Assembly: GCA_020773975.1 (NCBI GenBank)
Contig: GCA_020773975.1_3638.1
Origin: a phage
Direction: 5' to 3' (one strand)
Length of the DNA: 64,000 nucleotides
The position numbers were made by a program, and so were the translations under genes. Shown here piece after piece: positions 34,602 through 55,234 of the stretch. A model generated the notes under the pieces. The model worked only from the letters and a program-made list of their open reading frames with translations. It ran no database searches and was not told the origin of the DNA. The stretch's first letter is position 1; each line of letters begins with the position of its first letter.

Positions 34602-34610
34602 CCAAATTAT

Positions 34611-39081: not shown

Positions 39082-39111
39082 TGCAATATACCTTTATAGG
39101 TTTCGATGAGG
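39082..39111 (+). CDS. terL: Terminase large subunit, micro-exon 2a (Walker B region ...QYTFIGFDEG)
   Basis: In-frame segment between two intron cores encoding a hhhhDE Walker B-like motif; stop follows within 6 codons unless spliced. Confidence 0.45.
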
Positions 39112-41557: not shown

Positions 41558-41572
41558 CAGAGGGGATAATTC

Positions 41573-43114
41573 GTGTCAACAAGATTTGCACAACAAGAAG
41601 AGATTTCTAAAGCAGGTAATGAGAGACTTGCTGTTAGTCGTCTTCGCACCGGAGAGTTAGGCTCTGGTGCTCTTTCTCAACTTAGGGCTGAATCAGAGAT
41701 TATGAAAGTTAAGGAGTTGAGATGGCCTAATTTCATCGCCACTGTTGAAGCCATGAAGCAAGACCATACAGTTTCCACAGCCCTTGATACAAAGTATGTC
41801 TTTGTAACTAAAGCATTCAATGATTTTAAAATCTTGTATAACAGAGATAGCAGAAAATCTAAGAAAGCTGCTGAGTTTGTGGAGTATGCGCTGAAGAATC
41901 TTGCTAACCAACAAACTCTACGTGACATAGCCCGAAGCGCAGCAACGTTCAATGAGTATGGGTTTTCGATATTTGAAAAAGTTTATCGTACTGAGCCAGA
42001 GACTTCAAGGTATGCTGGGTATATTACGATTGATAAAATTGCATTCAGGCCACAGTGCAGTCTTTCTAGATCAAAGCCTTGGGTATTTGATGCCGATGGT
42101 AAGACGCTGAAGGGCATTAACCAAAGCAGTTTGGCTTTCTCCAATTTACAAAACGGAATGCTGGGGGATACTTTAAACATTATCCGTAAATTGACTAATG
42201 GTGATGATGTTTTTATTCCAGTTAATAAGTTGATGATAATGAGTTTGGGGGGTACGGAATCCAACCCTGCTGGGTTATCACCTTTGGTTGGTTGTTATAG
42301 GGCATTCCGAGAGAAGATCCTTATAGAAAATTTGGAGACTATCGGAGCATCTAAAGATCTTGGTGGTATCATAGAACTTAAGATACCCTCCCAGATCCTT
42401 AATAAAGCAGCAATAGACCCAACATCACCAGAAGCTGCTATGGTGCAAGGACTAATGGCAGATGCTGCAAACGCACACGCTGGGGAACAAGCCTATTTTA
42501 TCTTACCATCTGACCTCAATAATCAAGGTGGTAAACAATATGAAATGTCCCTTAAAGGGATCGATGGCGCAGGTAAACAATACAGCACACAAGAGCTTGT
42601 TAACTCTCGCAAGAAGGCTATTCTTGATCGTTTTGGTGCGGGGTTTATTAACTTAGGTAACGATGGGCAAGGATCTTATAATCTTTCAGAATCAAAACAA
42701 ACTATTCATGGTCATTTTGTCCAGAGAGATATTGATATTATTGTTGAGGCGTTCAATAAGAACTTAATACCTCAACTTCTTGCTTTGAACGATATAAGAT
42801 TGTCTGACGAAGATATGCCAAGACTGAAACCTGGGCTTATTCAAGAAGTCGATATGGAAGGCTTCTCTAAATTTGTTCAGCGTATTGGTGCTGTTGGGTA
42901 TTTGCCTAAAACACCTACAGTTATTAATAAAATTCTTGAGGTTGGTGGCTTTGACGAAGAAATCCCTGAAGATATGGAGCTTGATGAATTGTTGCAAATT
43001 CTTGGTCAGGATGTAAGCCGTTCTGGAGATGGTATGACACCAGGATCAACAGGTAACGGAACATCAAAAATATCTACTGTCAGGGATAATTCTGTTTCTA
43101 ATTTAGAGAATTAA
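41573..43114 (+). CDS. Putative portal protein
   Basis: 513 aa ORF immediately downstream of terL; position and size only. Confidence 0.45.
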   Translation: MSTRFAQQEEISKAGNERLAVSRLRTGELGSGALSQLRAESEIMKVKELRWPNFIATVEAMKQDHTVSTALDTKYVFVTKAFNDFKILYNRDSRKSKKAAEFVEYALKNLANQQTLRDIARSAATFNEYGFSIFEKVYRTEPETSRYAGYITIDKIAFRPQCSLSRSKPWVFDADGKTLKGINQSSLAFSNLQNGMLGDTLNIIRKLTNGDDVFIPVNKLMIMSLGGTESNPAGLSPLVGCYRAFREKILIENLETIGASKDLGGIIELKIPSQILNKAAIDPTSPEAAMVQGLMADAANAHAGEQAYFILPSDLNNQGGKQYEMSLKGIDGAGKQYSTQELVNSRKKAILDRFGAGFINLGNDGQGSYNLSESKQTIHGHFVQRDIDIIVEAFNKNLIPQLLALNDIRLSDEDMPRLKPGLIQEVDMEGFSKFVQRIGAVGYLPKTPTVINKILEVGGFDEEIPEDMELDELLQILGQDVSRSGDGMTPGSTGNGTSKISTVRDNSVSNLEN

Positions 43115-43182
43115 CACTCAACCTTCTGAAATAACTTGCAAAAGAAAAAGAACGATGTTAAAATAACTGTTATGGGGAAATA

Positions 43183-43824
43183 ATGAAATTTAAAAGCATT
43201 AAAGACCTTCCTTCATCAGTATCTGATCTGTCTCTTGTTCAAAAGAGCAAGATACTGAATATCGCTAATGGCCTGATTGCTTCAGGCCATTCTCCAGAAA
43301 TTTCTGTAGAAAAGGCTTCTGAGAGAGTTTTATCTCTAAATCTTAAAAAGAGTCTTAATAAAGAAACATCTGTAGTTAATATCCAAAAAGATGCGGAACA
43401 AATGATCTCTTATGAGGTTATTTATGAGCCAAACACCAAGGATGCCCATGGAGAGTGGATGTCTCCTGAAACGATAGTAAAGGCAAAAGAATCTTACGAT
43501 AAGGCACTCGCTGCTGGTTTGGTGAAAGAAAATTTATTCCATCTTAGCGAGACTGATGCATTCACTATTGAAAAAACTTGGATTCAAGAAGAACTGGATG
43601 TTGTGGTCATTGGGACGGAACAGATAATTAAAGCAGGAACATGGGTAGCCAAGGTTAAGTATAATGATCCTGATTTGTGGAATTTGAAAAAAGCAAATGT
43701 TGTTGGTGGTTTAAGCATCCAGTGCTCTGGGCGTGTGGACACAGCAACAGGAGAAATAACAGATGTTGATTTCGGTATCGAATGTCTGGGTTATCTAGAT
43801 GAAACAGAGGAAGAGGACGAATGA
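43183..43824 (+). CDS. Head morphogenesis protein (possible prohead protease/core)
   Basis: Position between portal and scaffold-like gene; acidic C-terminus. Confidence 0.3.
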   Translation: MKFKSIKDLPSSVSDLSLVQKSKILNIANGLIASGHSPEISVEKASERVLSLNLKKSLNKETSVVNIQKDAEQMISYEVIYEPNTKDAHGEWMSPETIVKAKESYDKALAAGLVKENLFHLSETDAFTIEKTWIQEELDVVVIGTEQIIKAGTWVAKVKYNDPDLWNLKKANVVGGLSIQCSGRVDTATGEITDVDFGIECLGYLDETEEEDE

Positions 43825-44822
43825 CAATTGTAAAGGCCAAAGCCATTAAGGAGAAGGGTATTGCACTGTGTCATGAGCTTCAAGGGTATTCTGCTAATTT
43901 AAGACCAGTATCACTTCTTATGAAGTCTGATCTTAAACCTGAGCAGCTTACTAAAGACGTTATCAAAGCCCTCCAGCAAGTAACTGTTACAATGAGCTTT
44001 GAAGAATTTCTGCGTAGATTCTTCTACATGTGGCATGATGATGCAGAACTGCTGGCAAAACTTCTTGGTTTTGAAACTGAACTTGAATACGATGCGGCGC
44101 AAAACCCTGATGATGAATTTATTGTGGCGTGGAATGCACAACATCAAGAATTTCTTGAAGAACGCGTGCAAGCAATAACAATTGCTAAAGCTGCTCACGA
44201 AGGTAAAGAATTAGATCTCGCTAAACAATATGAGTTGCTAAAATTACAACAATTGTTTGAAAAAGGTGTTGCAGAATTAGGAGTCACTTTCGTAGAGGGT
44301 GATGATAAAGATCTCCAGGTGACTGGGGTCGTCAAAGAAGCAGGTTCAAAACCTGTAGTTGATAAATCCAAGAAAAAAGAGGAGACCTCAGTGTCTAATA
44401 ATGTTGATGTGACCAAATCTCAGGAATATCTGGATCTGGTTAAAAAATTAGAAGAAGCTGAAGCCAAAGCTGCTAAAGCTGATGAAATTATCAAAGCTGC
44501 CGTTGAAGTGGAAAAGAAAGAAGCTCTGAATAAAGCAAAAACTTTCACTTTCGCTGCTGACTCTGATCATGAAGCACTGGCTAACTTTATTATCGAGAAA
44601 GCTAATGCTCCTGTGGTGACTATTCTGGAAAAAGCACAAGCTCGTATTAAGGAGCTTGAAGAAGAAGTTAAGACTGTGAAAAAAGAATTTGCTACCGCTG
44701 AACATGGTTCCGGTGCTGAAGCTACTACAGACGACATTAATAAGTCTGCTGAAGATATTCTGAAAGCCAACGTAGAAAAAGCTCGCGCCCGTGCACGCGA
44801 AGCGGCTGCAATGAACGCGTAA
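43821..44822 (+). CDS. Putative scaffolding protein
   Basis: Highly charged, alpha-helical/coiled-coil (EEAEAKAAKADEIIKAAVEVEKKEALNKAK); upstream of the capsid gene. Confidence 0.4.
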   Translation: MTIVKAKAIKEKGIALCHELQGYSANLRPVSLLMKSDLKPEQLTKDVIKALQQVTVTMSFEEFLRRFFYMWHDDAELLAKLLGFETELEYDAAQNPDDEFIVAWNAQHQEFLEERVQAITIAKAAHEGKELDLAKQYELLKLQQLFEKGVAELGVTFVEGDDKDLQVTGVVKEAGSKPVVDKSKKKEETSVSNNVDVTKSQEYLDLVKKLEEAEAKAAKADEIIKAAVEVEKKEALNKAKTFTFAADSDHEALANFIIEKANAPVVTILEKAQARIKELEEEVKTVKKEFATAEHGSGAEATTDDINKSAEDILKANVEKARARAREAAAMNA

Positions 44823-44840
44823 TTCGAGGAGATTAAATAA

Positions 44841-45263
44841 ATGGCTAATCCAATTCAAGGTTTCTACTCTGACATTGTACTGGGTAAAGTTGATTCTTCT
44901 GACCAAGGCTATAGCTTCAAGGAAATGGAGATTCAGTACGCAGCAGGTATGAAAGCAGGTATGATCGTTAAAGAAGATGGTACTCTAGCTGCATCTGGTG
45001 ATGCTGCGCAGGCTTATGGTGTTCTGGTTGACCATGACCTTGTACCTGCATACGAACCTGTTACCCCGTTCAAAGTAGGAACTAAATATAATTTTGTTGT
45101 TGCTGTTCGTGGCCTTACTCTGAATAAGTCCAAGATTGTGTTCTCTGATGGTTCTACTGGAATTGACGAGACTGCTATTAAAGCTCTTGAGGCAAGAGGT
45201 CTGAAAATCACCGATAAATATTACGATGGTTCTGAAGATATTAAAGTAACGGCTATCAGCTAA
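44841..45263 (+). CDS. Putative head decoration/auxiliary capsid protein
   Basis: 140 aa ORF directly upstream of the major capsid gene with strong RBS. Confidence 0.3.
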   Translation: MANPIQGFYSDIVLGKVDSSDQGYSFKEMEIQYAAGMKAGMIVKEDGTLAASGDAAQAYGVLVDHDLVPAYEPVTPFKVGTKYNFVVAVRGLTLNKSKIVFSDGSTGIDETAIKALEARGLKITDKYYDGSEDIKVTAIS

Positions 45264-45286
45264 TTTGCATCAAGGAGAATTTATAA

Positions 45287-46300
45287 ATGGCAGCAGTACA
45301 GACTAACGACTTTCAAATCGTAAACCTTGGCGCAGCACTGGAACTTGTTCCACGTCAGTATCGCCTGATTACCAACATGGATCTGTTCACCGCTTACCAT
45401 GGTGAAACCACAATTGCTCGTGTTGAGCGTGTTGACGAAATTGTTGCGGATATTCCTGCACGTCGTCGTGGTGGAGAACGTAACTATGTGGGTAGTGAAA
45501 AAGCCCAAATCAAGAACTTCAACATTCCGTTCTTCCCTCTGGATCGTCAGATCACTGCGGCAGATGTTCAGAACTTCCGTAAATACTTCACTACGGACGC
45601 TCCGAGAACTGTTGAAGACGTAGTTGCTCGCGTAGTTAAGCGTATTCGCGTTTCTCATGAACAACTGAAAGAAAAAGCAATGGTTCAGGCAATCATGGGT
45701 AAATCATGGTCTCCACAAGATCCGACCGCACAGTACAACTACTTTACTGAGTGGGGAGTTACCCAGCATACTGCCAATATCAACTTCACAGATGTTGCAG
45801 TTGACCCGTCTGACCTGATTGAGAAAGACGCTCGTGCATACATTATCGACAATGCAGGTGATAACGGCAATAACTACAATATCATTGTTCTGGCTTCTCG
45901 TAAATGGTTCTCTGCTCTGATCGCCCATCCGCTGATCATGAACGCTTACCAGTATTACTCTTCTACCCAAGAGCCGCTGCGTCGTCGTCTGGGTATGGGT
46001 TCTGAGAATGCCAACAACCGTATGTTTGTTCATAAGAACGTAACCTACATTGAAGACATCTCTGGATATATCCCAGATGGTGAGGCGTACATCCTGCCGC
46101 AAGGTATTGATGATATGTTCCAGATCCATTACGCTCCGGCAGACGATGTTCGTGAAGCGAACACTGTAGCTGAAGAACTGTACCTGTGGTACAAATCTTC
46201 TGCATATCTGCGTGAAGAGAAAGTTGAATCTGAGACTTCCTTCTTGACGGTTAACACCCGTCCTGAACTGGTTGTACGTTCTACAGGTACTTTCGCATAA
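45287..46300 (+). CDS. Putative major capsid protein
   Basis: 337 aa, strong RBS, biased codon usage, followed by a strong terminator. Confidence 0.5.
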   Translation: MAAVQTNDFQIVNLGAALELVPRQYRLITNMDLFTAYHGETTIARVERVDEIVADIPARRRGGERNYVGSEKAQIKNFNIPFFPLDRQITAADVQNFRKYFTTDAPRTVEDVVARVVKRIRVSHEQLKEKAMVQAIMGKSWSPQDPTAQYNYFTEWGVTQHTANINFTDVAVDPSDLIEKDARAYIIDNAGDNGNNYNIIVLASRKWFSALIAHPLIMNAYQYYSSTQEPLRRRLGMGSENANNRMFVHKNVTYIEDISGYIPDGEAYILPQGIDDMFQIHYAPADDVREANTVAEELYLWYKSSAYLREEKVESETSFLTVNTRPELVVRSTGTFA

Positions 46301-46324
46301 GATAGCTTAAATGCTACCTCTAAT

Positions 46325-46356
46325 GAGGGGAGGTGATAATTCACCTCCCCTTTTTC
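46325..46356 (+). terminator. Strong rho-independent terminator after the capsid gene
   Basis: 10 bp stem ggggaggtga/tcacctcccc with taat loop, followed by ttttt. Confidence 0.65.
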
Positions 46357-46431
46357 ACATTCTGACTTTAATAATAACCACTTATCCTGTATTGTAAAGT
46401 GGTTTTTACTAAGGAATAAAAAGGAGAATTT

Positions 46432-46938
46432 ATGGCGAATCAAAATTATCGTATTTTCCCTAACAAAGTTGAGCTGTTTAAATTTTTCGGAGCATATGCA
46501 CCACAATTGAATGCAGCAGTATCTGCAAGACTGCCTTTGAACGGTTTGTGTGTGGGGACACAACACAAGGCATTCCGAAATACGGTTGAATTTTTCACTG
46601 CTCTTGCTGAGATGTCTGGTCTGGATGTTGATGCGCAGCATTCTACCATTCGTATGGGTTCTTATATCGTATTCTTTAATAAAGATATTCCTAATCCAAA
46701 CAGTATGGGTAAGATAGTTGATGCTAAGATTGTTACAGCACAAGAGAAGAAAGATGGAGAGCCACTTTCAGTTGAAGAGATTTTGGCTGAAGCAGAGAAG
46801 TTGAATGACGAAACTGATAAGAAAGGTAGTAAGGATAAACTGGCTGAGTTTGCACTCTCTAAAGGTGTTACATTGGCTAAGAATAAATCTTTTGAGAAGA
46901 TGATTGCTGATTTAAAATCTGAATTAGAAGTATCCTAA
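46432..46938 (+). CDS. Hypothetical structural protein
   Basis: ORF with RBS aaggag. Confidence 0.35.
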   Translation: MANQNYRIFPNKVELFKFFGAYAPQLNAAVSARLPLNGLCVGTQHKAFRNTVEFFTALAEMSGLDVDAQHSTIRMGSYIVFFNKDIPNPNSMGKIVDAKIVTAQEKKDGEPLSVEEILAEAEKLNDETDKKGSKDKLAEFALSKGVTLAKNKSFEKMIADLKSELEVS

Positions 46939-46956
46939 TTTTTAAGGAGTTAAGCC

Positions 46957-48234
46957 ATGACAGCAACTACAGGTGTTGGCGGGTTAATTTATGGTCGTGC
47001 ATTAGTTGACCAGAAAACAGGAAAGAAAATAAATTTTGATGAGTTGGGTGGTGGGAATATCCCAGAAGATATAACAGAACTTATTGCATCTAAAGCCCCA
47101 ATAGAAAGCCCTTCATTTACAGGGAAACCTCAAGCACCAACACCATCGGATGATGCGGTAGGGAAGGAAATAACTAATGTAGAGTATGTTAAAAATCTAA
47201 TTGCAAAACTAGTTAACTCAGCACCTGAGACATTGGACACTCTCAATGAGTTGGCAAAAGCATTAGGTGATGACCCCAATTTTGCGACAACGGTCACTAA
47301 TGAACTGGCAGGTAAACAGCCGCTGAACGACGTGCTGACGGCAATCAGTGAACTGAAGCAACGGGCAGATAATCTTCTGTGCTTTAATCAGGACGGGAAT
47401 GCTTCACTGTCCCCGCTGTCAGAAAAAGCCCGGTCACTGCTGGCACTGGACACGACAGAAGCCATGCGCACGGAGCTTGAACTGAAGGCTGCCGCGACAA
47501 TGGATGTTCAGAGCGATATCCGTGACCGCACAGAAGGGCGTCTGGCCCTGCCGGGAGCATATGGTTACGGGCGTCTGTTCGCGTACGATGAGCACCTTTA
47601 CGTGAACGACGAACCCCAGGGCAGGAACTGGATAAAGAGTGCCACGCCGGGACGGTATGCGCTTACTTTTCGCGATGTCTCCTGGCTGCTTCCCGGCGTG
47701 AAAACATTTTCCGGCATTATTGATGTACTCCAGTCACCATTCACCATCAGTGATGATGAGCGTGGTGCCAAAAACATGACACTGGTCTGTTATAACCAGC
47801 GTGGTGATGGTGAAAACAGCATTCATATAGTCAGCTACAGTGTTTCCGGTGATGAGCTGAGCTTCACATCGTCCACTGTTGTCTCAGACGGTCTTTCACT
47901 GGCCCGGTTGATGTCGGTGACGACAGGAGAGGGGCCGTCATCCTGGTACAGGTATCCGGATGTTGGCGCGCCAGTTCTGGCTGTGTATCAGGGAACAGCG
48001 GCCGGAGATAACTCAGTCAAAATAGGCCTGGGAGATACGGTGCCGGGGTCACGACTTGGTCCGGTGAGTATTACCTGTACATTCAGTCAGTCTGGCATAT
48101 CGGAGTCCACACCGTCTGTAAACACAGGAGGTGCAGGTGCATACAGTTTTCCGGGGCGTTATCAGGCGCTGTCCGGGTGGAAGCAGGGAGGGTCAGCCCG
48201 TGGCTGTATCTGCCTGTTCGTGCGCATTGAGTAA
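46957..48234 (+). CDS. Tail fibre protein (chimeric: AT-rich N-terminal part, GC-rich C-terminal part from ~47330)
   Basis: N-terminal SPSFTGKPQAPTP...NELAGKQPLNDVLTAISEL resembles the conserved joint of T4 gp37/lambda Stf-type fibres; abrupt rise in GC after ~47330. Confidence 0.55.
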   Translation: MTATTGVGGLIYGRALVDQKTGKKINFDELGGGNIPEDITELIASKAPIESPSFTGKPQAPTPSDDAVGKEITNVEYVKNLIAKLVNSAPETLDTLNELAKALGDDPNFATTVTNELAGKQPLNDVLTAISELKQRADNLLCFNQDGNASLSPLSEKARSLLALDTTEAMRTELELKAAATMDVQSDIRDRTEGRLALPGAYGYGRLFAYDEHLYVNDEPQGRNWIKSATPGRYALTFRDVSWLLPGVKTFSGIIDVLQSPFTISDDERGAKNMTLVCYNQRGDGENSIHIVSYSVSGDELSFTSSTVVSDGLSLARLMSVTTGEGPSSWYRYPDVGAPVLAVYQGTAAGDNSVKIGLGDTVPGSRLGPVSITCTFSQSGISESTPSVNTGGAGAYSFPGRYQALSGWKQGGSARGCICLFVRIE

Positions 48235-48249
48235 CGGGGTAAATAAGGC

Positions 48250-48825
48250 ATGAAAATCAGAGCGGTAAAAGGCATCAGAAACGCACATTATCTTGAAAAT
48301 GGTGCGGTTGACTGCGAGGTGTTATTTGAAGGCGAAACGGAATTCGTTCCGTATACCGCCATGCGTGACGACAGCGCCCGGACAGGGCGGTATATCTGGC
48401 GGGAGCTGCAAAGCGGCAAATGGGGTGAAGTCGCGCCGTTTACCGTCACGCCTGAACGTATCGCTGCGGCAAAAGCAGCCAAAAAACAGGAAATCGAGGC
48501 ATGGCAAACAGAGCAGGAAGCGCTGGCGTTCACGTTCGAATGGAACGGTCGAACGTGGAATGGAGGTGCGTCCTCAGTATCCCGTCTCACGCCAGCGGTG
48601 ATGACGGCAAAGTCAGAGAGTCGCGAGGAGACAGAGTGGAGTGATGCGGAAAACAGGCGGGTGAAGCTGTCGTTGCAGAAACTGGAAGAGTTGCTTACAG
48701 CGATGGTGCAGGAGCAGGTTATTCGCAACGATGAGATTTATCGCCGGCAGCGGGAGATGAAGGATGAACTGAATAACCTGGAGGATTTAAGCTCAATCAG
48801 AGCGATGACGATTAGCAGCAGTTAG
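48250..48825 (+). CDS. Tail fibre assembly protein (Tfa-like chaperone)
   Basis: C-terminal ...NDEIYRRQREMKDELNNLEDLSSIRAMT typical of lambda/Mu-type Tfa; GC-rich like the fibre 3' end. Confidence 0.55.
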   Translation: MKIRAVKGIRNAHYLENGAVDCEVLFEGETEFVPYTAMRDDSARTGRYIWRELQSGKWGEVAPFTVTPERIAAAKAAKKQEIEAWQTEQEALAFTFEWNGRTWNGGASSVSRLTPAVMTAKSESREETEWSDAENRRVKLSLQKLEELLTAMVQEQVIRNDEIYRRQREMKDELNNLEDLSSIRAMTISSS

Positions 48826-49192
48826 CGGTCAATTAGCCCAGAAAAAAAAACGCGAAGTTACAAAAGAGTGGAGAAAACGGGAAGAAAGCTCTACAACTAT
48901 TGTTTCCTATAATGGTGCAAGGTATGATGTTGATAATGCAACTCTTGATCGTATTTATCCAGTATTATTAGCACAAAAAGCATCCTCGGCTAGGCAAGCT
49001 GTGATTTGGAGAGATGTTGATAACAGACCTGTTGAGATGAGTAGCTCTGAATTTGAAAATCTTGTTGTAGCTATGTCTTCCGAGTTGGCAACCAAGAATG
49101 ATACAATATACACTAGGCAACGAGAGATGAAAGACCAAGTGCTTTCAGCCTCTACAGTTGAGGAATTGCAAAGTATAACAATTGGGTGGTAG
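48809..49192 (+). pseudogene. Remnant of a second, AT-rich tfa paralogue (C-terminal part, no start codon, different frame)
   Basis: Frame translation ...DVDNRPVEMSSSEFENLVVAMSSELATKNDTIYTRQREMKDQVLSASTVEELQSI parallels the Tfa C-terminus; only a GTG at 49001 is available as start. Confidence 0.4.
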
Positions 49193-49494
49193 CTACGGAT
49201 TATAAGGATAAAGTTGTCAATGCTGAAGTTATACTTCCAGATGGGCATAGTATTGGAGGATCAGGACTCCCAAACCAATCTTTTAAATTATACACAGAAG
49301 ACACCGCGACCATAAAACTTTCAGGTAATGGTGAAAAAGCAACACCACTTAAAGGTGTTGTTGTGGTGGCAGAAGATGAAAATAATGCTCTCCAAGCTGG
49401 AGATAATGGGTTAGCTGGAGTAATACCCGAAGCAGGTGCTGATGAAGCCTCACATGAATTTAATTATGTTGTTCAATATAGTTACACAAGTTAA
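49186..49494 (+). CDS. Hypothetical protein
   Basis: ORF only. Confidence 0.3.
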   Translation: MVATDYKDKVVNAEVILPDGHSIGGSGLPNQSFKLYTEDTATIKLSGNGEKATPLKGVVVVAEDENNALQAGDNGLAGVIPEAGADEASHEFNYVVQYSYTS

Positions 49495-49505
49495 AAGGAG
49501 AAAAT

Positions 49506-49763
49506 ATGGCAACAAATGGCGTAGCAGGTAAAGTATATGCATCAAGCCTTATTGATATAAAAACTGGAAAATCTGTGAAAATCGAAGATATTGTTGCTGG
49601 AGGCTCAGATAGCTATGTTCTTCCAGCGGCTACGGAATCAGTATTAGGAGGTGTTAAGAAAGCACAAACACAAGCAGATTCTGTGGCTTCAGATGTCTCT
49701 ACGTTGGTCAACGATTTTAATGCTTTGCTTGCCAAATTGAAAGCCGCTGGTATTATGTCGTGA
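49506..49763 (+). CDS. Small protein similar to the tail-fibre N-terminus
   Basis: MATNGVAGKVYASSLIDIKTGKSVKIEDIVAGG parallels MTATTGVGGLIYGRALVDQKTGKKINFDELGGG of the 46957 fibre. Confidence 0.35.
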   Translation: MATNGVAGKVYASSLIDIKTGKSVKIEDIVAGGSDSYVLPAATESVLGGVKKAQTQADSVASDVSTLVNDFNALLAKLKAAGIMS

Positions 49764-49765
49764 TA

Positions 49766-49792
49766 AAAAGACCCTTCGGGGTCTTTTATTTT
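49766..49792. terminator. Bidirectional rho-independent terminator
   Basis: gaccc-ttcg-gggtc hairpin flanked by A-run and T-run; between convergent genes. Confidence 0.6.
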
Positions 49793-50190
49793 AGGATTCC
49801 TTGCACTCCTTTATCCAAGTTTGCATTAATATACACTTCCCGCCCATCTTTGTAAAAAGTGCAGATGTATTTTCCAGTGTAAGATTGTTTTCCTGAGATA
49901 ATTGCGACATCATCAAAATATTGATATGCTTCCGCCTGTTCTGCTATCCTACCCTCGAAACCTGATGACACAACAATAACGCCTGGTTTAAATGCTTCTC
50001 TAAATCTCTTATCGCAAGATAATTGTACAATACGGCTAATTGCCTCATCTTTTTCTTCTGGCGACAACCAACTTGCCTCGACAGATTTATAATCATTAAT
50101 ATCTGGGTTCTTTTTCACATATTGGAAAGTTCCCGCTGCAATAACAGCACAGACGCACAGACCAATTGTAATTTTTAAAATATTTTTCAT
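49786..50190 (-). CDS. Reverse-oriented lipoprotein (moron-like insertion in the structural module)
   Basis: Signal peptide with lipobox-like LCVCAV; own promoter-like element at ~50200-50260 (rc TTGACA); opposite strand to all neighbours. Confidence 0.45.
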   Translation of the reverse strand: MKNILKITIGLCVCAVIAAGTFQYVKKNPDINDYKSVEASWLSPEEKDEAISRIVQLSCDKRFREAFKPGVIVVSSGFEGRIAEQAEAYQYFDDVAIISGKQSYTGKYICTFYKDGREVYINANLDKGVQGILK

Positions 50191-50317
50191 AAATCCTCCA
50201 TAGCAATTGTTGTGTTTATCTTACCTACGGAATTTTTCGTGTCAAGCGTTTTTAATGACAAAAATTGTATTTTGTGATAATATAGTTACTGACAAGTAAC
50301 ATAAAATGGAGAGTTAG

Positions 50318-50836
50318 ATGACAGACCAAGAAATTGTTGATTACATCAGGCTCCTGCTTGGGTCAATATCCCCAGAGGCACTACCTGATGAAGTTATCAT
50401 GGCATTCCTTGAGATGGAGAAAAAAAGAGCAAACTGGCCTAACCCATCATCCACGCCTTGCGACATGTGGAAAGTGGTCTATAACACAATGGTGGCTGTA
50501 TTAAGATGGTTAATTCTTCAAGAGATAAATTCTGGCGAGGCATCCATCACAGAAAGATTGGAAAAGATAGGTGATGAGACAATACAGGTGAAAGGCGGCT
50601 CATCATACCAGAACTGGAAAGATTTTCTGGACTGGCTACTGCAAAACCCTGATTACGTCAATAGTTGTCTGAATGGTGTCTCTGGTTTGATTATTGTAGG
50701 TGGTGTGCGGCAGGATGAGTTTTGGCGTGTCAAGAACAATCCAAACTCCAGAAGCCCGTTTGATGTTTCTGGTATAGTTCCTCAAACAGGAGTCCCCGGT
50801 ATTCCTCGGAGATACCCAAAACACAGGTATTATTGA
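50318..50836 (+). CDS. Hypothetical structural protein
   Basis: ORF in the late operon. Confidence 0.3.
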   Translation: MTDQEIVDYIRLLLGSISPEALPDEVIMAFLEMEKKRANWPNPSSTPCDMWKVVYNTMVAVLRWLILQEINSGEASITERLEKIGDETIQVKGGSSYQNWKDFLDWLLQNPDYVNSCLNGVSGLIIVGGVRQDEFWRVKNNPNSRSPFDVSGIVPQTGVPGIPRRYPKHRYY

Positions 50837-50901
50837 CAATCGTATTCCTAATTATTGATTTTGCTTGGATAATGTGGTAAAATACCTTAACGGGAGTTCT
50901 T

Positions 50902-51378
50902 ATGAGAACAAAATTTAAATCTCATCAAGATTTAAGTGCTTTGGAGAATTTTTATAACTCTGTACAGCAACTTGATAAAAAACAAGTCTCCTATGGTTAT
51001 TATGATGACCCACACTATTCAGGACTAAATACTGCAACTCTGGCAGCTATCCATGAACAAGGCTGGAATAATCTTCCAGCCCGTACATTCATAACTAGCG
51101 CGGCTGTGTCCTTTCAAAAGGATTTGGAGAAATTACAGAAGGAGTTATTCGGCACGTTAGCATCTGGAAGTAATAATCCAACCCCAATGCTGAAAAAAAT
51201 TGGTAAAGCAGGTGCTGAAAAAATTAAGTTTGTAATAGACTCTGGTCTTTTCCCTCATAATACTGTATCAGATGCATGGGCAGATGTCAAAGGTTTTAGC
51301 GCAGCTATGTATCATTATGGGGATTTAAGAGATTCCACAACTTATAAAATTTCGAACAGAAGAGGTTCAGGGGCGTAA
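50902..51378 (+). CDS. Hypothetical structural protein
   Basis: ORF in the late operon. Confidence 0.3.
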   Translation: MRTKFKSHQDLSALENFYNSVQQLDKKQVSYGYYDDPHYSGLNTATLAAIHEQGWNNLPARTFITSAAVSFQKDLEKLQKELFGTLASGSNNPTPMLKKIGKAGAEKIKFVIDSGLFPHNTVSDAWADVKGFSAAMYHYGDLRDSTTYKISNRRGSGA

Positions 51379-51381
51379 ATT

Positions 51382-51816
51382 ATGGCGGGATACAAACTTA
51401 TAGGCAAGAACAAATTGATACCCAGAGTCACCATGAAAGGTAGACACAGACAGTTCAAAAAGACAGACTTAGATAATCCATTTGAAAATGGTGGGTTGGA
51501 TATTGAGTATGTTGAATTTGATGTACCTGAATGTGTCGTTCAACCTATTAGTGGTAAAGCAGCTAGGGATTATACGTCCCAATTAGTTCCTGAAGGTGGT
51601 AGGCAGTATGATTCCTTTACTGTGTATTCATCTGTGATGTTGAAAGGCCCAGTTGAAGGGTCTGATAACATGGCTGATCAGATCCTATTAATGAACTCTC
51701 GTGGTGAGATGGAGTGGTTCACAGTTATTAAATCTGATTTGTATCAGACCACAGGTGTCTCTAGGTTCAGAGCTTATGTGGTGGCAATACCAGAAGGGAC
51801 AAACGGAGGTATTTAA
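51382..51816 (+). CDS. Hypothetical structural protein
   Basis: ORF in the late operon. Confidence 0.3.
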   Translation: MAGYKLIGKNKLIPRVTMKGRHRQFKKTDLDNPFENGGLDIEYVEFDVPECVVQPISGKAARDYTSQLVPEGGRQYDSFTVYSSVMLKGPVEGSDNMADQILLMNSRGEMEWFTVIKSDLYQTTGVSRFRAYVVAIPEGTNGGI

Positions 51817-52346
51817 TGACTGATTTTATCAGTACAGATGAAATCTTCGATGCTTTGACGAAAACAATAGGTTCTTTTTGTAAAGAAGTTACTGGTAGGA
51901 AAGTCGTGCTGGCAGGGGAAGATGAAATACCTAAAGTTGATGGTGAGTTTATTCTAGTGGATCTTACTGCTGTAGATCAGCTTGACTGGCAATCAGACGA
52001 TGGATTTACTGATGATGGTCGAGCGATGACAGTTCATAACTATGAAATTGTATATACATTGACTGCTTATCGTGGTAAAGCACCAAATGCCCTAAGTCGT
52101 ATTTTACAAGCTATGAACTTACCTTTTATATACGATAAGTATTTCCCAACTAATTCACCTTTTGCATATTCCTCCTCTTCAACAATATCTCGGTTGAGAG
52201 TTCCTTTGAATGTCCAAAAATATGAAACTCGGGCTGTAGTGCTGATAACTTTTAATGTTTGCTTTGCAGAAACAGACACTGGAGTTTTCGAAGATTTGGA
52301 AACCCTCAATGCGCAACTTTCATATCATTTTCCGAAAGAGGATTAA
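51816..52346 (+). CDS. Hypothetical structural protein
   Basis: ORF in the late operon. Confidence 0.3.
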   Translation: MTDFISTDEIFDALTKTIGSFCKEVTGRKVVLAGEDEIPKVDGEFILVDLTAVDQLDWQSDDGFTDDGRAMTVHNYEIVYTLTAYRGKAPNALSRILQAMNLPFIYDKYFPTNSPFAYSSSSTISRLRVPLNVQKYETRAVVLITFNVCFAETDTGVFEDLETLNAQLSYHFPKED

Positions 52347-52472
52347 AAGAAATATTTTGGTTATTGATAAGCACTGGCTTATTGGTGATCACGATGTGGA
52401 GAAATAACCCACAACACAGCACAAATAAGTGCTGGTCAATAACTGTACGTACAGAAATAAAAGAGGAAATCG

Positions 52473-53885
52473 ATGGCTTATAATGACAAGGTGGTTGATG
52501 TAACAGTCACACTTGGTACTCAACCAATCGACACAAAAGGGTTTGAAACCCCACTGTTCCTTGCGATCCATAATGTCTTCCCAGAAAGAGTTCGTGCTTA
52601 TACCGAACTTAGTCAATTAGTTGATGATGGATTTGCTGTTGGAACACCTGCATATAATTATGCATCTAAGGCATTTTCTGGAACATTCCGTCCACAATAT
52701 CTGATGATTGGTCGCCAAGGCTTCACCAATACGATTGTGGATTTTACAGACCAGACAAACACAGACCCAGAAACACCTGTAGCTCTAAACTTTGTGACAG
52801 GGGCTTATCAAAAGAGCATACTTGTCAATGTAAATGCATCTTCAGAGCCTTCTACAATTGCTACATCTCTGGCTAACGCTATTAATGCGGATACAACGCT
52901 GAAGACTGTACTTACGGCAACAGCAAGCAAGGCTAAAGTAACAATTGCCCCAAAAGATAGTGGCAAGTTTAGTGTTGGTAAAGACAGCGGAAATATGGTC
53001 ATCACCAATACCTCCGATGAGACAGTTTCTTCTGTTCTTCCGCAGGTTATGACCGCAAATGAGAACTGGTATTTTGTCAGCACTGAGTCACACACAAAAA
53101 CATCTATCTTAAGTGCCGCCGCATTCGCCGCTGCAAATTACAAGATGCATGTCTACTCAACTGCGGATGAAAAATCTAAAACTGCTGATAGTGATTCCAT
53201 CGCAGATGAACTGAAAGCTCTGCAATACGACACCTCTATTGGTATGTACGATCCGCTGGCAGACAGTGCCTATCCAGAAGGAGGAATTATCGGGGCGATG
53301 GCCTCAAATGATCCTTCCTATGGGGATTCTATCCACCTGAAGACTATGGACGGGGTTGTTGCTCCAACCTTGAGTGCAACGGAACGTATGACTATCTGGG
53401 GTAAGAATCTGAACTTCTACCGCATGATTAATGGTGTAGGATCCTTCTATGAAGGCAAATGTGCTTCCGGCAATTATGTAGATGTTGTGAGATTTGGTCA
53501 CTGGCTTAAGTTCCGCACCGAAGAAAGTGTTTTCGGATATATGTCCCGCAGATCCAACATGGGACTGTCTGTTAAAATGAGTGATGATGACCTCCCTAAC
53601 CTGAAGTCTGTCATCATGAATAACCCTATCAACGTAGGTATTTCTAACGGAGCTATTTTAACAGGTTATGATGAGGTTAACAAGGTCTTCTTCGACCCTG
53701 TAATCACAATCCCTCTGCGTGGAAGCATACCTACTAACGATCTGGCAGCACGTACACTTAACAACGTGAAAGTGGAACTGGTATACAACACACCACTACA
53801 TTTTGTCAAGATCCGTATGACTGTCATGCTGGACAAAACAGGTTCAAATTCTGGTAACGCACAGACAGTAACAGCAGGAGTGTAA
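52473..53885 (+). CDS. Putative tail sheath protein
   Basis: 470 aa ORF followed by a ~157 aa ORF, chaperone-like ORFs and a tape measure gene (myovirus order). Confidence 0.45.
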   Translation: MAYNDKVVDVTVTLGTQPIDTKGFETPLFLAIHNVFPERVRAYTELSQLVDDGFAVGTPAYNYASKAFSGTFRPQYLMIGRQGFTNTIVDFTDQTNTDPETPVALNFVTGAYQKSILVNVNASSEPSTIATSLANAINADTTLKTVLTATASKAKVTIAPKDSGKFSVGKDSGNMVITNTSDETVSSVLPQVMTANENWYFVSTESHTKTSILSAAAFAAANYKMHVYSTADEKSKTADSDSIADELKALQYDTSIGMYDPLADSAYPEGGIIGAMASNDPSYGDSIHLKTMDGVVAPTLSATERMTIWGKNLNFYRMINGVGSFYEGKCASGNYVDVVRFGHWLKFRTEESVFGYMSRRSNMGLSVKMSDDDLPNLKSVIMNNPINVGISNGAILTGYDEVNKVFFDPVITIPLRGSIPTNDLAARTLNNVKVELVYNTPLHFVKIRMTVMLDKTGSNSGNAQTVTAGV

Positions 53886-53888
53886 TAA

Positions 53889-54362
53889 ATGAATACAGCT
53901 ATTCTAACGCCGTATGCATATGACCCTAAAAAAGTAAAATTGTATCTGATGACTCAAAGAGTAACAGGATTCGCAGCGGACACGAAAATTGTTGTGTCCC
54001 GTAATGAAGACAATATCATCCCCCACATGGGGGTTGATGGTGAGCTATCTGCTGCACTGTCCCGTAACCAATCTGGTGTTATGACGGTTTCTCTTCAGAA
54101 TACAGCATCATGGAATGGTAATTTAGCAAACTGGCAAAAACAAGCATCCGTAACTGGCCTTATTTTCTTCCCTGTTCTTCTGGAAGGTTCTCAAGGTATG
54201 GGCTTGAGTACAATTGGATGGATTCAGAAACAGCCTGACCTTACTTACGGAACGGAAGTTGGTCAGATGGACTGGGAAATTGGTATTCTGGATGCTTGGT
54301 TGAGTCCTGATACTCTGTCCTCTGTTGGCTTCGGCCTCGCTGGACTTTCCGGTATTATTTAA
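53889..54362 (+). CDS. Putative tail tube protein
   Basis: 157 aa ORF immediately after the sheath candidate. Confidence 0.4.
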   Translation: MNTAILTPYAYDPKKVKLYLMTQRVTGFAADTKIVVSRNEDNIIPHMGVDGELSAALSRNQSGVMTVSLQNTASWNGNLANWQKQASVTGLIFFPVLLEGSQGMGLSTIGWIQKQPDLTYGTEVGQMDWEIGILDAWLSPDTLSSVGFGLAGLSGII

Positions 54363-54371
54363 TAATTTCGT

Positions 54372-54905
54372 GTGCCACATGGATGTGGCCTTTATACACG
54401 TAAGGATAGTTCAACTTCTAAAGACGCAGGAGCGTGCATGAAAATCAGACAAACAACTGAAATTGACCTAGCGGGTCACAACTTTGTTATTACACATTGG
54501 TCCCCAACAAAAGCATTTAAAAATATTCCTAAGATAGGACGTTATATTGCTGTTCCAATGGCATCCATTTCTGGAGCACTTATGTCTGGTGGGCAGAATC
54601 TTTCGGATGCTATTCCAACAGCAGTATTATACCTATTTGACCAGATGGAGCAAGATAATATTGAAGAACTTTTTGCCTTAATTCTGGACGATGTATCTGT
54701 TGATGGTATGGCAGGTAAGGTAGACATTGATGATATTTTCCAAGGGAAGATGATGGACCTTATCAAACTCGTGGCAAAAGTGCTGGAGGTTAACTACGGC
54801 TGTTTTTTCACGAAAGACGGTTTCGCAAGCCTTCAGGATCTTCTGGGACGCCTGGGTCAGACCCATCAACTGAACACGATGGATCAGGCAGAGGAAGCGG
54901 AGTAA
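54372..54905 (+). CDS. Putative tail assembly chaperone (start probably internal Met ~54438)
   Basis: Acidic ~155 aa ORF upstream of the tape measure gene. Confidence 0.3.
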   Translation: MPHGCGLYTRKDSSTSKDAGACMKIRQTTEIDLAGHNFVITHWSPTKAFKNIPKIGRYIAVPMASISGALMSGGQNLSDAIPTAVLYLFDQMEQDNIEELFALILDDVSVDGMAGKVDIDDIFQGKMMDLIKLVAKVLEVNYGCFFTKDGFASLQDLLGRLGQTHQLNTMDQAEEAE

Positions 54906-54940
54906 CACCGTCTAATATTTCGAAAGTTGTCCTGAGAGCT

Positions 54941-55183
54941 ATGAACTATGCAAGAAAAAATAGCTCATTGACTTGGTTCGATTATTTGTGGTGTCGTGCT
55001 CTGAAGAGTTTTAAAGGTGAGTCTTATTCCTCACTTGAGTCTGCTGACATGGCCTACCTGCTTAAACTGAACGAATATCTTGATATCGAAGAGTTTATCC
55101 AAGACGTACAGGAGAGAGAGGAACAAAGTGCAGCCAATGCTGCCGCCGCTGCAAATAGGTCGCGCCGAGGTAGAAGAGGTTAA
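54941..55183 (+). CDS. Small protein upstream of tape measure (possible chaperone partner)
   Basis: Position only. Confidence 0.25.
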   Translation: MNYARKNSSLTWFDYLWCRALKSFKGESYSSLESADMAYLLKLNEYLDIEEFIQDVQEREEQSAANAAAAANRSRRGRRG

Positions 55184-55234
55184 TCTCAAGCCAGGTTCCT
55201 TCTCGGAACCTGGCTTTTTTATTGAGGAAAATCT

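What the first reader, a model, noticed from the sequence alone, without database searches (positions are those of the whole stretch)
47330..49192. Tail-fibre distal domain and Tfa chaperone form a GC-rich cassette, with a remnant of an older AT-rich tfa downstream
From ~47330 to ~48830 the sequence is much more GC-rich than the rest of the window and encodes the C-terminal part of the fibre plus a complete Tfa-type chaperone. Immediately after, in another frame and with no start codon, is the C-terminal half of a second, AT-rich Tfa paralogue. This is the footprint of a host-range module swap by recombination with a prophage-type fibre/chaperone cassette.
Basis: seen in the sequence. Interest (0 to 1): 0.6.

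Follow-up and report, generated by a model that had tools for sequence, protein, structure and literature searches.

The report
Prophage fibre-tip cassette captured by lytic coliphage
A lytic E. coli phage has replaced the outer half of one of its fibre genes, and that fibre's folding helper gene, with a nearly identical copy from a dormant E. coli prophage; the swap left a dead fragment of the old helper gene, and related phages show the same site has been rebuilt many times.

Summary

**Composition.** Window 47293-48861 is 53.8% GC against 39.75% for the rest (z = 7.45).

**Content.** It encodes the distal roughly 314 residues of a 425-aa fibre plus a complete 191-aa chaperone. The chaperone is DUF4376 (PF14301), not the classical Tfa family (PF02413).

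**Remnant.** 48862-49192 is codons 82-189 of the resident AT-rich chaperone, 95% identical to phage Av-05. It is in another frame and has no start codon before 49001.

**Donor lineage.** Window 47619-48834 is 99.34% identical to the right end of a Rac-site prophage in an E. coli assembly.

**Junctions.**
- The left crossover (47270-47292) lies in a fibre motif shared by phage and prophage.
- The right join (48862-48864) has only 2-3 nt of microhomology.

**New here.**
- A second fibre gene downstream has lost about 1.5-1.7 kb in frame (49416/49417), and its ATG is now ACG.
- Ten metagenomic relatives with an identical major capsid protein show this locus is hypervariable. They carry other prophage-derived cassettes, shorter remnants, an in-frame hybrid chaperone, fusions and complete loss.

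This is a known kind of event, but a clean and recent example between a virulent phage and a prophage.

The parts
46957..48234 (+). Chimeric fibre gene (425 aa): phage-type N-terminal part joined to a prophage-type distal shaft and tip
   Evidence: ORF. It is identical to NCBI protein EIM2934207.1 on a 133,857-bp contig. It is homologous over its full length to the 19-1-2 fibre, 47% aa overall, about 90% at the N-terminus and about 30% in the tip. It matches phrog_2636, tail fiber.
46957..47269 (+). Resident AT-rich 5' part of the fibre gene (virion anchor and proximal shaft)
   Evidence: 84-86% nt identity to Av-05 and 19-1-2. Informative sites are phage-type up to 47269. GC3 is 0.30.
47270..47292 (.). 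Left crossover interval, inside the codons for ...GDDPNFATT... of a motif shared with lambdoid Stf fibres
   Evidence: Four-way alignment and informative-site scan. The last phage-specific site is 47269 and the donor-type run starts at 47293. The motif region (residues about 75-135) matches many fibre PHROGs and PDB 9d93 gp4.
47293..48861 (+). Imported GC-rich cassette: distal fibre, DUF4376 chaperone and 36 nt of donor intergenic DNA
   Evidence: 53.8% GC, z = 7.45. Window 47619-48834 matches L005 1-1216 at 99.34%, with 8 mismatches and no gaps. Window 47293-47618 is 80-90% identical to E. coli prophage stf genes.
48250..48825 (+). Complete DUF4376-type fibre chaperone gene (191 aa)
   Evidence: PF14301 at 46.9 bits, with no PF02413 hit. 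phrog_1141 at 5.6e-76. One amino acid (R86Q) differs from E. coli prophage protein P0121. The AF2 model has pLDDT 92, with an N-terminal three-strand sheet and a helical body with beta-hairpins.
48826..48861 (+). Donor-derived DNA downstream of the chaperone stop codon
   Evidence: It aligns with the sequence downstream of the DUF4376 gene in L005 and in prophage SerU-LTIIb. The window lacks a 47-nt piece that those two carry between GTCAATT direct repeats.
48862..48864 (.). Right junction: 2-3 nt of microhomology (AAA) between the donor intergenic DNA and codon 81/82 of the resident chaperone gene
   Evidence: Alignments. Donor identity ends at 48861-48864 and Av-05 identity starts at 48862.
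48862..49192 (+). Remnant of the resident AT-rich DUF4376 chaperone gene (codons 82-189 and the stop); no usable start codon
   Evidence: 95% nt identity to Av-05. Protein alignment. DUF4376 at 48.2 bits. The frame opens at 48809 and the first start-type codon is the GTG at 49001. There are 15 lineage-specific substitutions (7 synonymous, 8 non-synonymous) and no stops or frameshifts.
49195..49494 (+). Stub of the second fibre gene: first about 74 codons fused in frame to the last about 25 codons. The ancestral ATG is ACG at 49195-49197 and the deletion junction is at 49416/49417
   Evidence: Alignments with Av-05 and 19-1-2. The missing stretch is L001 5065-6728 or L002 5117-6627. The N-terminal 74-78 residues are conserved in the fibre encoded at this position in PVP-SE1, SSE121, 4MG and GAP31-type phages, and no phage record covers the short form.
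49506..49763 (+). 85-aa 'head fibre'-like gene that closes the cluster; its N-terminus resembles that of the chimeric fibre
   Evidence: PF11133 at 63.4 bits. 68% aa identity to PVP-SE1 gp67. N-terminal similarity to the fibre has E = 2e-7.
49765..49795 (.). Bidirectional intrinsic terminator-like hairpin (GACCC-TTCG-GGGTC flanked by A and T runs) ending the operon
   Evidence: Read directly. Terminators are annotated at the same relative place in PVP-SE1. The simple scan did not list it.

Best explanation
The window comes from a virulent Avunavirus-type (Vequintavirinae) E. coli myophage.

The event. In the recent past its fibre gene downstream of the major capsid gene recombined with the side-tail-fibre region of a lambdoid E. 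coli prophage, of the kind sitting at the Rac/ttcA site. One crossover used the conserved fibre motif ...LDTLNELAKALGDDPNFATT..., which both genes share. The other end was joined illegitimately, through 2-3 nt of microhomology. That join connects a point 36 nt past the prophage chaperone's stop codon to codon 81/82 of the phage's own chaperone gene.

The product. The result is a chimeric fibre. The phage-specific N-terminal anchor and proximal shaft carry a prophage-derived distal shaft and receptor-binding tip. The tip's cognate DUF4376 chaperone arrived on the same piece of DNA. Co-transfer makes sense because the chaperone's N-terminal domain has to match the tip it folds. The 5' 43% of the old chaperone gene was deleted. 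The rest is transcribed within the late operon but lacks a start codon and the fibre-binding domain, so it is a scar.

Shown: foreign origin, donor lineage, junction positions, intactness of the new genes, truncation of the old one, and recurrence of such events at this locus.

Inferred: direction in real time (acquisition during infection of a lysogen), chaperone function, and an altered receptor specificity.
For: Relatives.
- The closest phages (96% nt for 18-1-2, 19-1-2, 24-2-1 and TH18; about 93% for Av-05) have fibre, intact AT-rich DUF4376 gene, second fibre and 85-aa gene at this place.
- Homology to them stops at 47339 and resumes at 48862.

Composition. 53.8% against 39.75% GC, z = 7.45, GC3 0.55-0.60 against 0.30.

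Donor.
- L005 is a contig of E. coli GCA_021105315.1 that carries the same cassette at 99.34% identity (8 mismatches in 1,216 nt).
- About 480 nt downstream of the cassette lie genes of the same lengths and orientations as K-12 uspF, ompN, ydbK, ydbJ, hslJ and ldhA. Homology to the right arm of Rac starts at L005 1291, and ttcA starts at about 1462.
- DUF4376 homologues are abundant in E. coli prophages, with 1,649 proteins at E <= 1e-5. Among 50,697 phage records they occur only in lambdoid temperate phages and Avunavirus, plus one partial match in Aeromonas phage PX29.

Junctions..

Recency. The near-identity to the prophage, the unameliorated GC3, and a remnant still free of stops and frameshifts.

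Recurrence. Relatives with an identical major capsid protein carry other GC-rich cassettes.
- L014 is 98.4% identical over 96% of 2.66 kb to an E. coli prophage stf-DUF4376-com-mom region. Its right join sits at a 12/13-nt microhomology.
- L015 and L016 carry cassettes that are 91-95% identical to E. coli prophages over about 53-68% of their length (tested with L015; for L016).
- Right junctions fall at different codons of the resident chaperone gene (81, about 110-118, and 118), and L012 has an in-frame hybrid chaperone.

Chaperone role. DUF4376 proteins are experimentally required for, or bind to, fibres in Alteromonas phages V22 and A5 and in Campylobacter CJIE1 (PMC7289586, PMC10579305, PMC7882524).
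Against: - The donor contig L005 starts inside the fibre gene. For 47293-47618 no match above about 90% was found, and complete E. coli genomes give at most 83% there. The donor's sequence at the left crossover is therefore not known.
- Only one genome carries this allele. The junction strings are absent from the viral, metagenome and representative-genome collections.
- The source is a contig of an E. coli isolate assembly, and I could not inspect reads.
- Substitutions specific to the remnant show no relaxation of constraint, with dN/dS about 0.3, like its intact relatives. This fits recency but would also fit continued function.
- Relatives that lack both fibres (L018, on a 131,744-bp contig) show the fibre is dispensable. 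Where it sits on the virion is unknown, so 'host-range determinant' is an inference.
Confidence: 0.9

Rival explanations
1. Assembly artefact. The phage contig comes from an E. coli isolate whose own prophage carries a near-identical cassette, and the assembler stitched prophage reads into the phage contig.
For: - The fibre and chaperone proteins are on record only from one 133,857-bp 'E. coli' contig.
- A 96%-identical prophage-type chaperone (P0242) has an accession number close to the window's, so it is probably in the same assembly.
- One metagenome contig (L013) runs from the phage through a cassette into the E. coli hya operon. Such chimeras, or real hybrids, therefore do occur.
Against: - A graph chimera needs a shared k-mer at each junction. 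The longest exact run shared by phage-type and prophage-type sequence at the left junction is 14 nt, and the right junction shares 2-3 nt.
- The cassette differs from the known prophage copies by 8 nt, and it lacks a 47-nt segment they have.
- The chimeric fibre ORF is in frame.
- Independent relatives from other samples show the same kind of structure with other cassettes.
Confidence: 0.03
2. Reverse direction: the cassette is native to the phage and was donated to E. coli prophages.
For: The resident Avunavirus fibre and chaperone are themselves distant homologues of the prophage genes, so exchange between the two pools is old and could run both ways.
Against: - The cassette has E. coli/lambdoid composition, not phage composition.
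- Hundreds of E. coli prophage homologues exist against one phage genome.
- The donor-type intergenic tail is found in prophages at different attachment sites.
- The truncated resident gene next to the cassette shows that something was overwritten in the phage.
Confidence: 0.02
3. The downstream fragment is not a dead scar but is still used. It might be translated from the GTG at 49001 or by frameshifting from the new chaperone gene, or it might be kept as a homology arm for further cassette exchange.
For: - No stop or frameshift in 109 codons, and lineage-specific dN/dS of about 0.3.
- No terminator lies between it and the upstream gene.
- Relatives keep shorter versions of it.
- L012 carries an in-frame hybrid of a new 5' half and the old 3' half. 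This shows the old 3' half can recombine with an incoming chaperone gene and still be functional.
Against: - There is no start codon for the first 64 codons of the open frame, and only a weak AGG lies before the GTG at 49001.
- There is no slippery sequence in the 14-nt overlap with the chaperone frame.
- Any product would lack residues 1-81, the part that co-varies with the fibre tip (L014 against L015).
- In L014-L016 the later exchanges used the GC-rich 3' half, not the AT-rich remnant, as the right arm.
Confidence: 0.07
4. The cassette reached this genome from another Avunavirus that already carried it, by ordinary homologous recombination in the flanks, rather than directly from a prophage.
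For: - The flanks are themselves mosaic. Window 48862-49417 is 95% identical to Av-05 but 86% to 19-1-2, whereas the genome overall is closer to 19-1-2.
- The locus recombines frequently among relatives.
Against: - No other phage with this allele was found.
- The 99.34% identity to a prophage leaves little time for an intermediate.
- This rival changes only the last step, not the prophage origin.
Confidence: 0.15

Closest known systems
Horizontal exchange of tail-fibre distal parts among unrelated phages (lambda Stf/Tfa, T4 gp37/gp38, P2 H/G, Mu S/U; Montag 1989, Haggard-Ljungquist 1992, Tetart 1998). Montag and Haggard-Ljungquist are references [71] and [72] of PMC3945230, and Montag and Tetart are also in the reference list of PMC11069274.
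   Same: The receptor-binding end of a fibre moves together with its assembly factor. Crossovers use short conserved motifs within fibre genes. The N-terminal anchor stays with the recipient.
   Different: Those exchanges are ancient, with low identity. Here identity to the prophage is 99.3%. The chaperone is DUF4376, not Tfa or gp38. One end is an illegitimate join that left a visible scar.
Fibre plus DUF4376 chaperone module shared between unrelated Alteromonas phages V22, A5 and P24 (PMC7289586, PMC10579305)
   Same: The same chaperone family sits immediately downstream of the fibre gene, and the module is shared across distant phage groups. The AF2 model here has an N-terminal three-strand sheet and a helical body with beta-hairpins, as described there.
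   Different: The host and fibre family differ. In Alteromonas the sharing is at the protein-similarity level, whereas here a near-identical DNA donor and both junctions are identified.
Acquisition of DNA from defective prophages (Rac, Qin, DLP12) by infecting lambda through relaxed homologous recombination (De Paepe et al. 2014, PMC3945230)
   Same: The donor is a Rac-site prophage and the target is the stf/tfa region. The exchange occurs during lytic growth on a lysogen.
   Different: The recipient there is temperate and both ends are homologous. That study found no mosaics above 90% identity between virulent and temperate coliphages, and it attributed the old stf exchanges to invertases. 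Here the recipient is a virulent myophage, identity is above 99%, and no invertase site is present.
Invertible fibre segments (Mu G, P1 C, e14 P, with Gin/Cin/Pin)
   Same: Alternative fibre tips travel with their own assembly genes at one locus.
   Different: There is no invertase gene, no inverted second set and no crossover-site match near the cassette. Variation arises by replacement and deletion, not by switching.
Homology-facilitated illegitimate recombination
   Same: One homologous anchor is combined with a microhomology join at the other end. L014 shows microhomology at both ends.
   Different: It was described for bacterial transformation. Which enzymes act here, phage or host, is unknown.

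Membership tests
DUF4376 (PF14301) intermolecular fibre chaperones | Pfam PF14301 domain above the gathering score | tested here: met
   The intact gene scores 46.9 bits and the remnant 48.2 bits against a cut-off of 25. phrog_1141 matches at 5.6e-76.
DUF4376 (PF14301) intermolecular fibre chaperones | Gene lies immediately downstream of the fibre gene it serves | tested here: met
   The fibre stop is at 48234 and the chaperone start at 48250. The donor prophages have the same arrangement.
DUF4376 (PF14301) intermolecular fibre chaperones | Fold: N-terminal beta-strands that pair with the fibre head, plus a helical body with beta-hairpins resembling intramolecular chaperone domains | tested here: inconclusive
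   [not shown]
DUF4376 (PF14301) intermolecular fibre chaperones | Needed for folding or trimerisation of the cognate fibre tip | not testable with these tools
   This needs co-expression. There is indirect support: the chaperone's N-terminal half co-varies with the fibre tip between L014 and L015, while the C-terminal half is shared.
Classical Tfa / Caudo_TAP (PF02413; lambda Tfa, Mu U, P2 G) | Pfam PF02413 domain | tested here: not met
   Neither the intact gene nor the remnant gives a PF02413 hit at E <= 0.01, and there is no NCBIfam hit.
Lambdoid side tail fibre (Stf) | Distal shaft and tip homologous to prophage Stf | tested here: met
   99.34% nt identity to the Rac-site prophage copy. 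Protein hits to E. coli prophage fibres reach up to 57% over the whole tip.
Lambdoid side tail fibre (Stf) | Prophage tail-fibre N-terminal domain (PF08400) that docks on the lambdoid tail | tested here: not met
   The 425-aa protein has no Pfam hit. Its N-terminal 110 residues are Avunavirus-specific. It is therefore a chimera, not an Stf.
Din-invertase switchable fibre cassette | 26-bp crossover sites and an invertase gene flanking alternative tips | tested here: not met
   The pattern scan found 6 matches in the window against 6.6 expected, none near the cassette. The repeat search showed no inverted second set.
Avunavirus (Vequintavirinae) | Nucleotide identity and gene order with type phage Av-05 and relatives | tested here: met
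   96.2% identity over 89% of 18 kb to 18-1-2, 19-1-2, 24-2-1 and TH18, and 93.3% to Av-05.

The most novel reading that the evidence does not exclude
The locus is more than a one-off mosaic. It may be a standing capture site through which a common sewage coliphage lineage repeatedly samples receptor-binding tips from the prophages of the strains it infects.

A first, illegitimate insertion leaves a scar. It also installs prophage-like sequence on both sides: the fibre motif and the 3' half of the DUF4376 gene. Later exchanges with the prophage pool can then proceed by plain homologous recombination. The scar itself can be resolved into an in-frame hybrid chaperone.

The fibres are dispensable accessory adhesins that are gained, swapped, fused and lost on a time scale at which the capsid protein does not change at all.

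This would contradict the view that virulent coliphages do not take recent DNA from temperate ones.
Probability: 0.35. Interest if true: 0.65.

Novelty: new member of a known kind. Interest (0 to 1): 0.48.

Why it matters
- It is a dated, junction-resolved natural case of a strictly lytic E. coli myophage taking a receptor-binding module and its chaperone from a host prophage. A 2014 survey found no exchanges above 90% identity between virulent and temperate coliphages, and used that absence as reassurance for phage therapy (PMC3945230).
- It shows what the intermediate of such a swap looks like: one homologous end, one microhomology end, and a truncated resident chaperone gene.
- The metagenomic relatives show how the scar is shortened or resolved into a hybrid gene.
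- It marks the fibre motif and the middle of the DUF4376 gene as natural splice points. These could guide engineering of chimeric fibres in this phage group.
- It flags the locus as the first place to look when related phages differ in host range.

Tried and rejected
**Searches that found nothing**
- A peptide-pattern scan of one genome per species for relatives of the fibre tip.
- Exact look-ups of the window's fibre and chaperone in the contig index.
- Exact searches for the right-junction string in the viral, metagenome and representative-genome collections, and for the deletion-junction string in the viral collection.
- NCBIfam gave no family.
- A PDB sequence search gave nothing for the chaperone. 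For the fibre it found only the shared motif, 9d93 gp4.
- A literature search found no study of the Avunavirus fibre locus. The phiTE and phi92 structure papers do not mention a fibre encoded next to the capsid gene.

**Structure comparisons that were not diagnostic**

**Ideas considered and dropped**
- Invertase-mediated exchange. No crossover-site match was found.
- A fixed cassette right end. The window's right junction lies within about 3 nt of mosaic boundaries seen in L005 against K-12 Rac and in L005 against SerU. A wider alignment (06-00048, Rac-SA53, phiP27, K_EC180) shows the region after the stop codon is short and variable. I therefore treat the coincidence as weak.
- Programmed frameshift from the chaperone gene into the remnant. 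There is no slippery site.
Full report
**What the window is**

The region belongs to a Vequintavirinae myophage of the genus Avunavirus. Window 38000-56000 is 96.2% identical over 89% of its length to Escherichia phages 18-1-2, 19-1-2, 24-2-1 and vB_EcoM_TH18. It is 93.3% identical to Av-05 over the part that aligns.

In those relatives the gene order is:
- major capsid gene;
- a 169-aa gene;
- a fibre gene of 416 aa;
- a 189-aa DUF4376 gene;
- a second fibre of 593 aa (split into 545 + 115 aa in the Av-05 record);
- an 85-aa 'head fibre'-like gene;
- a terminator.

**Checking the observation**

The composition anomaly is real and large.
- Window 47340-48861 is 53.8% GC against 39.75% elsewhere, 7.45 standard deviations above same-length windows.
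- The 14 richest 300-bp windows of the 64 kb all lie inside 47201-48801.
- Third-position GC is 0.55 in the distal fibre and 0.60 in the chaperone. It is 0.30 in the 5' part of the same fibre gene and 0.30 in the downstream fragment.

The ORFs are as described: fibre 46957-48234 (425 aa) and chaperone 48250-48825 (191 aa).

Downstream, a different frame is open from 48809 to the stop at 49190-49192. It has no ATG, GTG or TTG until the GTG at 49001. Its translation aligns with residues 82-189 of the Av-05 and 19-1-2 chaperones.

Both the intact gene and the fragment match Pfam DUF4376 (PF14301) above threshold. Neither matches the classical Tfa family PF02413. 'Tfa-type' is therefore right as a functional analogy but wrong as a family assignment.

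**Where the foreign DNA starts and ends**

Homology to Av-05 and 19-1-2 runs to 47339, stops, and resumes at 48862.

A four-way alignment with a lambdoid prophage fibre (SerU-LTIIb) places the left crossover more precisely. The window follows the phage type up to 47269 and the prophage type from 47293. The interval 47270-47292 encodes ...GDDPNFATT... This is part of a motif (LDTLNELAKALGDDPNFATT) present in both the Avunavirus fibre and lambdoid Stf proteins. The surrounding stretch matches many fibre families and PDB 9d93 gp4. The left end is thus a homologous crossover in a shared linker.

On the right, prophage-type sequence continues 36 nt beyond the chaperone's stop codon. It meets the resident chaperone gene at codon 81/82 with only AAA (48862-48864) in common. 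That is an illegitimate, microhomology join.

About 1.58 kb replaced about 1.17 kb of resident DNA.

**The donor**

The chaperone differs by one residue from P0121, an E. coli protein. Its contig (L005, from GCA_021105315.1) matches window 47619-48834 at 99.34%, with 8 mismatches and no gaps. L005 begins at a contig end, so the match probably extends further.

The genes downstream in L005 have the same lengths and orientations as K-12 uspF, ompN, ydbK, ydbJ, hslJ and ldhA. L005 aligns with the last 171 bp of prophage Rac from position 1291, and with ttcA from about 1462. The cassette therefore sits at the right end of a prophage at the Rac site.

In 5,426 complete E. coli genomes the best matches are far lower. 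They reach 76-78% for the tip and chaperone, and at most 83% for the proximal part. The best fibre-tip protein outside the window's own record is 57% identical. The 99.3% match is therefore a specific, recent link, not family resemblance.

Three things fix the direction as prophage to phage:
- the composition of the cassette;
- the abundance of homologues in E. coli prophages;
- the overwritten resident gene.

**What was replaced**

The resident fibre and the chimeric one are homologous end to end (47% overall, about 30% in the tip). The two chaperones are 37% identical.

Among 50,697 phage records this chaperone type occurs only in lambdoid temperate phages and Avunavirus, apart from one partial match in Aeromonas phage PX29. 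The AT-rich resident module looks like a much older, compositionally ameliorated acquisition of the same kind. That reading is an inference.

**State of the remnant**

The remnant has 15 substitutions of its own relative to Av-05 and 19-1-2. Seven are synonymous and eight non-synonymous, and there are no stops or frameshifts. The ratio matches that of its intact relatives. Most changes therefore predate the truncation, and the event is young.

The remnant lies inside the late operon, and no terminator separates it from the chaperone gene. It lacks a start codon. It also lacks residues 1-81, which form the N-terminal sheet domain in the AF2 model.

**A second lesion**

Right after the remnant, the second fibre gene is reduced to a stub.
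- Its ATG is ACG at 49195-49197.
- Codons about 75 onward are deleted in frame down to the last 25 codons, at 49416/49417.
- The missing stretch is 1,664 nt of Av-05, or 1,511 nt of 19-1-2.

The retained N-terminal 74-78 residues are the conserved start of the fibre encoded at this position in PVP-SE1, SSE121, 4MG and GAP31-type phages. No phage record has the short form. The stub is therefore derived.

**The locus in close relatives**

Looking up the window's major capsid protein found it, residue for residue, in 243 blocks of public assemblies. Ten loci were read. Their capsid genes are 97.7-98.4% and their portal genes 95-97.7% identical in DNA to the window.

Between the 169-aa gene and the 85-aa gene they differ radically.
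- **L014, L015, L016:** other GC-rich fibre and DUF4376 cassettes, followed by about 230 nt of donor DNA that includes the start of a Mu Com-like gene, then a shorter AT-rich remnant of 71 codons.
- **L014 in detail:** 98.4% identical over 96% of 2.66 kb to a stf-DUF4376-com-mom region of an E. coli chromosome. Its right join lies at a 12/13-nt microhomology (CAAAGAGCATCCC), and its left join lies after codon about 30 with about 4 nt in common.
- **L015 and L016:** these two share their fibre tip, chaperone and remnant at 95.8%. The L015 cassette is 91-95% identical to E. coli prophages over about 53-68% of its length.
- **L012:** an in-frame hybrid chaperone whose crossover falls at the conserved R(L/I)YPVLLAQK codons.
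- **L011 and L020:** the fibre's 5' part is fused to the second fibre's 3' part across a 25-nt repeat, and the chaperone is lost.
- **L017 and L019:** mini-ORFs of 122 and 164 aa only.
- **L018 (131,744-bp contig):** no fibre at all. The join falls in the first codons that the fibre shares with the 85-aa gene.
- **L013:** runs from the phage through a cassette into the E. coli hya operon. This is most simply an assembly chimera through a cassette shared with a co-occurring prophage.

Taken together:
- Capture from prophages has happened several times, with at least three right junctions in the resident chaperone gene and at least three left junctions.
- The second fibre has been truncated independently several times.
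- Both fibres are dispensable.
- L014 and L015 share the 3' half of the chaperone gene but differ in its 5' half and in the fibre tip. This fits an N-terminal domain matched to the tip and a conserved DUF4376 body that doubles as a recombination arm.

**How it most likely works**

Shown:
- the origin of the cassette;
- the junctions;
- the intact reading frames;
- recurrence at this locus.

Inferred from family knowledge:
- The DUF4376 protein acts as an intermolecular chaperone, or transient cap, on the trimeric tip. Evidence comes from V22 gp27, A5 gp9 and the Campylobacter CJIE1 H-fibre partner (PMC7289586, PMC10579305, PMC7882524).
- The chimeric fibre therefore presents the prophage's receptor specificity on the lytic phage.

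Where the fibre sits on the virion is unknown. The window ends before the main tail-fibre cluster. In the related phage phiTE the short and long tail fibres attach to the baseplate wedge (PMC11972413).

**Comparison with what is known**

Exchange of fibre tips with their assembly genes among unrelated phages is textbook. Examples are lambda Stf/Tfa with T4 gp37, the P2, Mu and P1 fibres, and T-even adhesin swapping at conserved motifs.

This case differs in three ways: its recency, the chaperone family, and the preserved intermediate.

De Paepe et al. found no mosaics above 90% identity between virulent and temperate coliphages. They ascribed the old stf exchanges to invertases (PMC3945230). 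Here identity exceeds 99% and no invertase site is present. A later in-silico study did report transfer between virulent phages and prophages (PMC11069274).

**Verdict**

This is a new member of a known kind. Interest is moderate, raised by the population-level plasticity of the locus and by its bearing on gene flow from prophages into lytic phages.

Noticed in passing
window 49195-49494: The second fibre gene, conserved at this position in many Vequintavirinae, is reduced to a 99-102-codon stub by an in-frame deletion of about 1.5-1.7 kb. Its ATG has mutated to ACG. Relatives show independent truncations with other end points.
   Followed up: yes
L011-L020 (loci around the identical capsid gene), positions about 8680-13500: The stretch between the 169-aa gene and the 85-aa gene is hypervariable among phages with an identical major capsid protein. 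It ranges from no fibre gene to two fibres plus a chaperone, and includes fusions, hybrids and several different prophage-derived cassettes.
   Followed up: yes
window 46957-47060 and 49506-49610: The first 30 or so residues of the 425-aa fibre resemble the N-terminus of the 85-aa 'head fibre'-like protein (E = 2e-7). In L018 the whole cluster is missing, with the join inside this shared start. The two proteins may share a docking site, so whether this is a tail, neck or head fibre is open.
   Followed up: partly
L013 10372-15014: A metagenome contig passes from the phage through a fibre and DUF4376 cassette into E. coli NiFe-hydrogenase (hya) genes. It is probably an assembly chimera through a cassette shared with a prophage in the same sample, but a real phage-chromosome hybrid is not excluded.
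   Followed up: partly
L014 11180-11410, and the same region in L015 and L016: The donor DNA carried into these relatives includes the 5' part of a Mu Com-like zinc-finger gene (MDSVRCKNCNKLLFKGG...). In the E. coli donor this gene precedes mom. It is cut off where it joins the AT-rich remnant.
   Followed up: partly
window 48826-48861 against L005 1208-1290: The window lacks a 47-nt piece that the prophages carry between two GTCAATT repeats. Its right junction lies within about 3 nt of mosaic boundaries seen between prophages at different attachment sites. This may be a local hot spot or a coincidence.
   Followed up: partly
[not shown]
   Followed up: no
window 29416-34689: A cluster of 15 tRNA genes on the + strand, including two tRNA-Met and two tRNA-Ser. 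It accounts for the next-highest GC windows after the cassette.
   Followed up: no
window 46326-46351: A 26-nt perfect palindrome just downstream of the capsid gene, matched on both strands in relatives. It is probably a hairpin or terminator.
   Followed up: no
L001 (Av-05) 1-3000: In the Av-05 record the fibre gene is preceded by minus-strand genes (DprA-like, protease, methyltransferase) instead of the capsid gene. The genome is 121 kb against about 134 kb in relatives, and its second fibre is split into two ORFs. This suggests rearrangement or assembly problems in that reference.
   Followed up: no
window 46302-47339: The 169-aa gene and the 5' part of the fibre gene are only 82.5-86% identical to relatives, which are 94-99% identical to each other there, although the adjacent capsid gene is about 98% identical. 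The left flank of the locus is therefore also mosaic.
   Followed up: no
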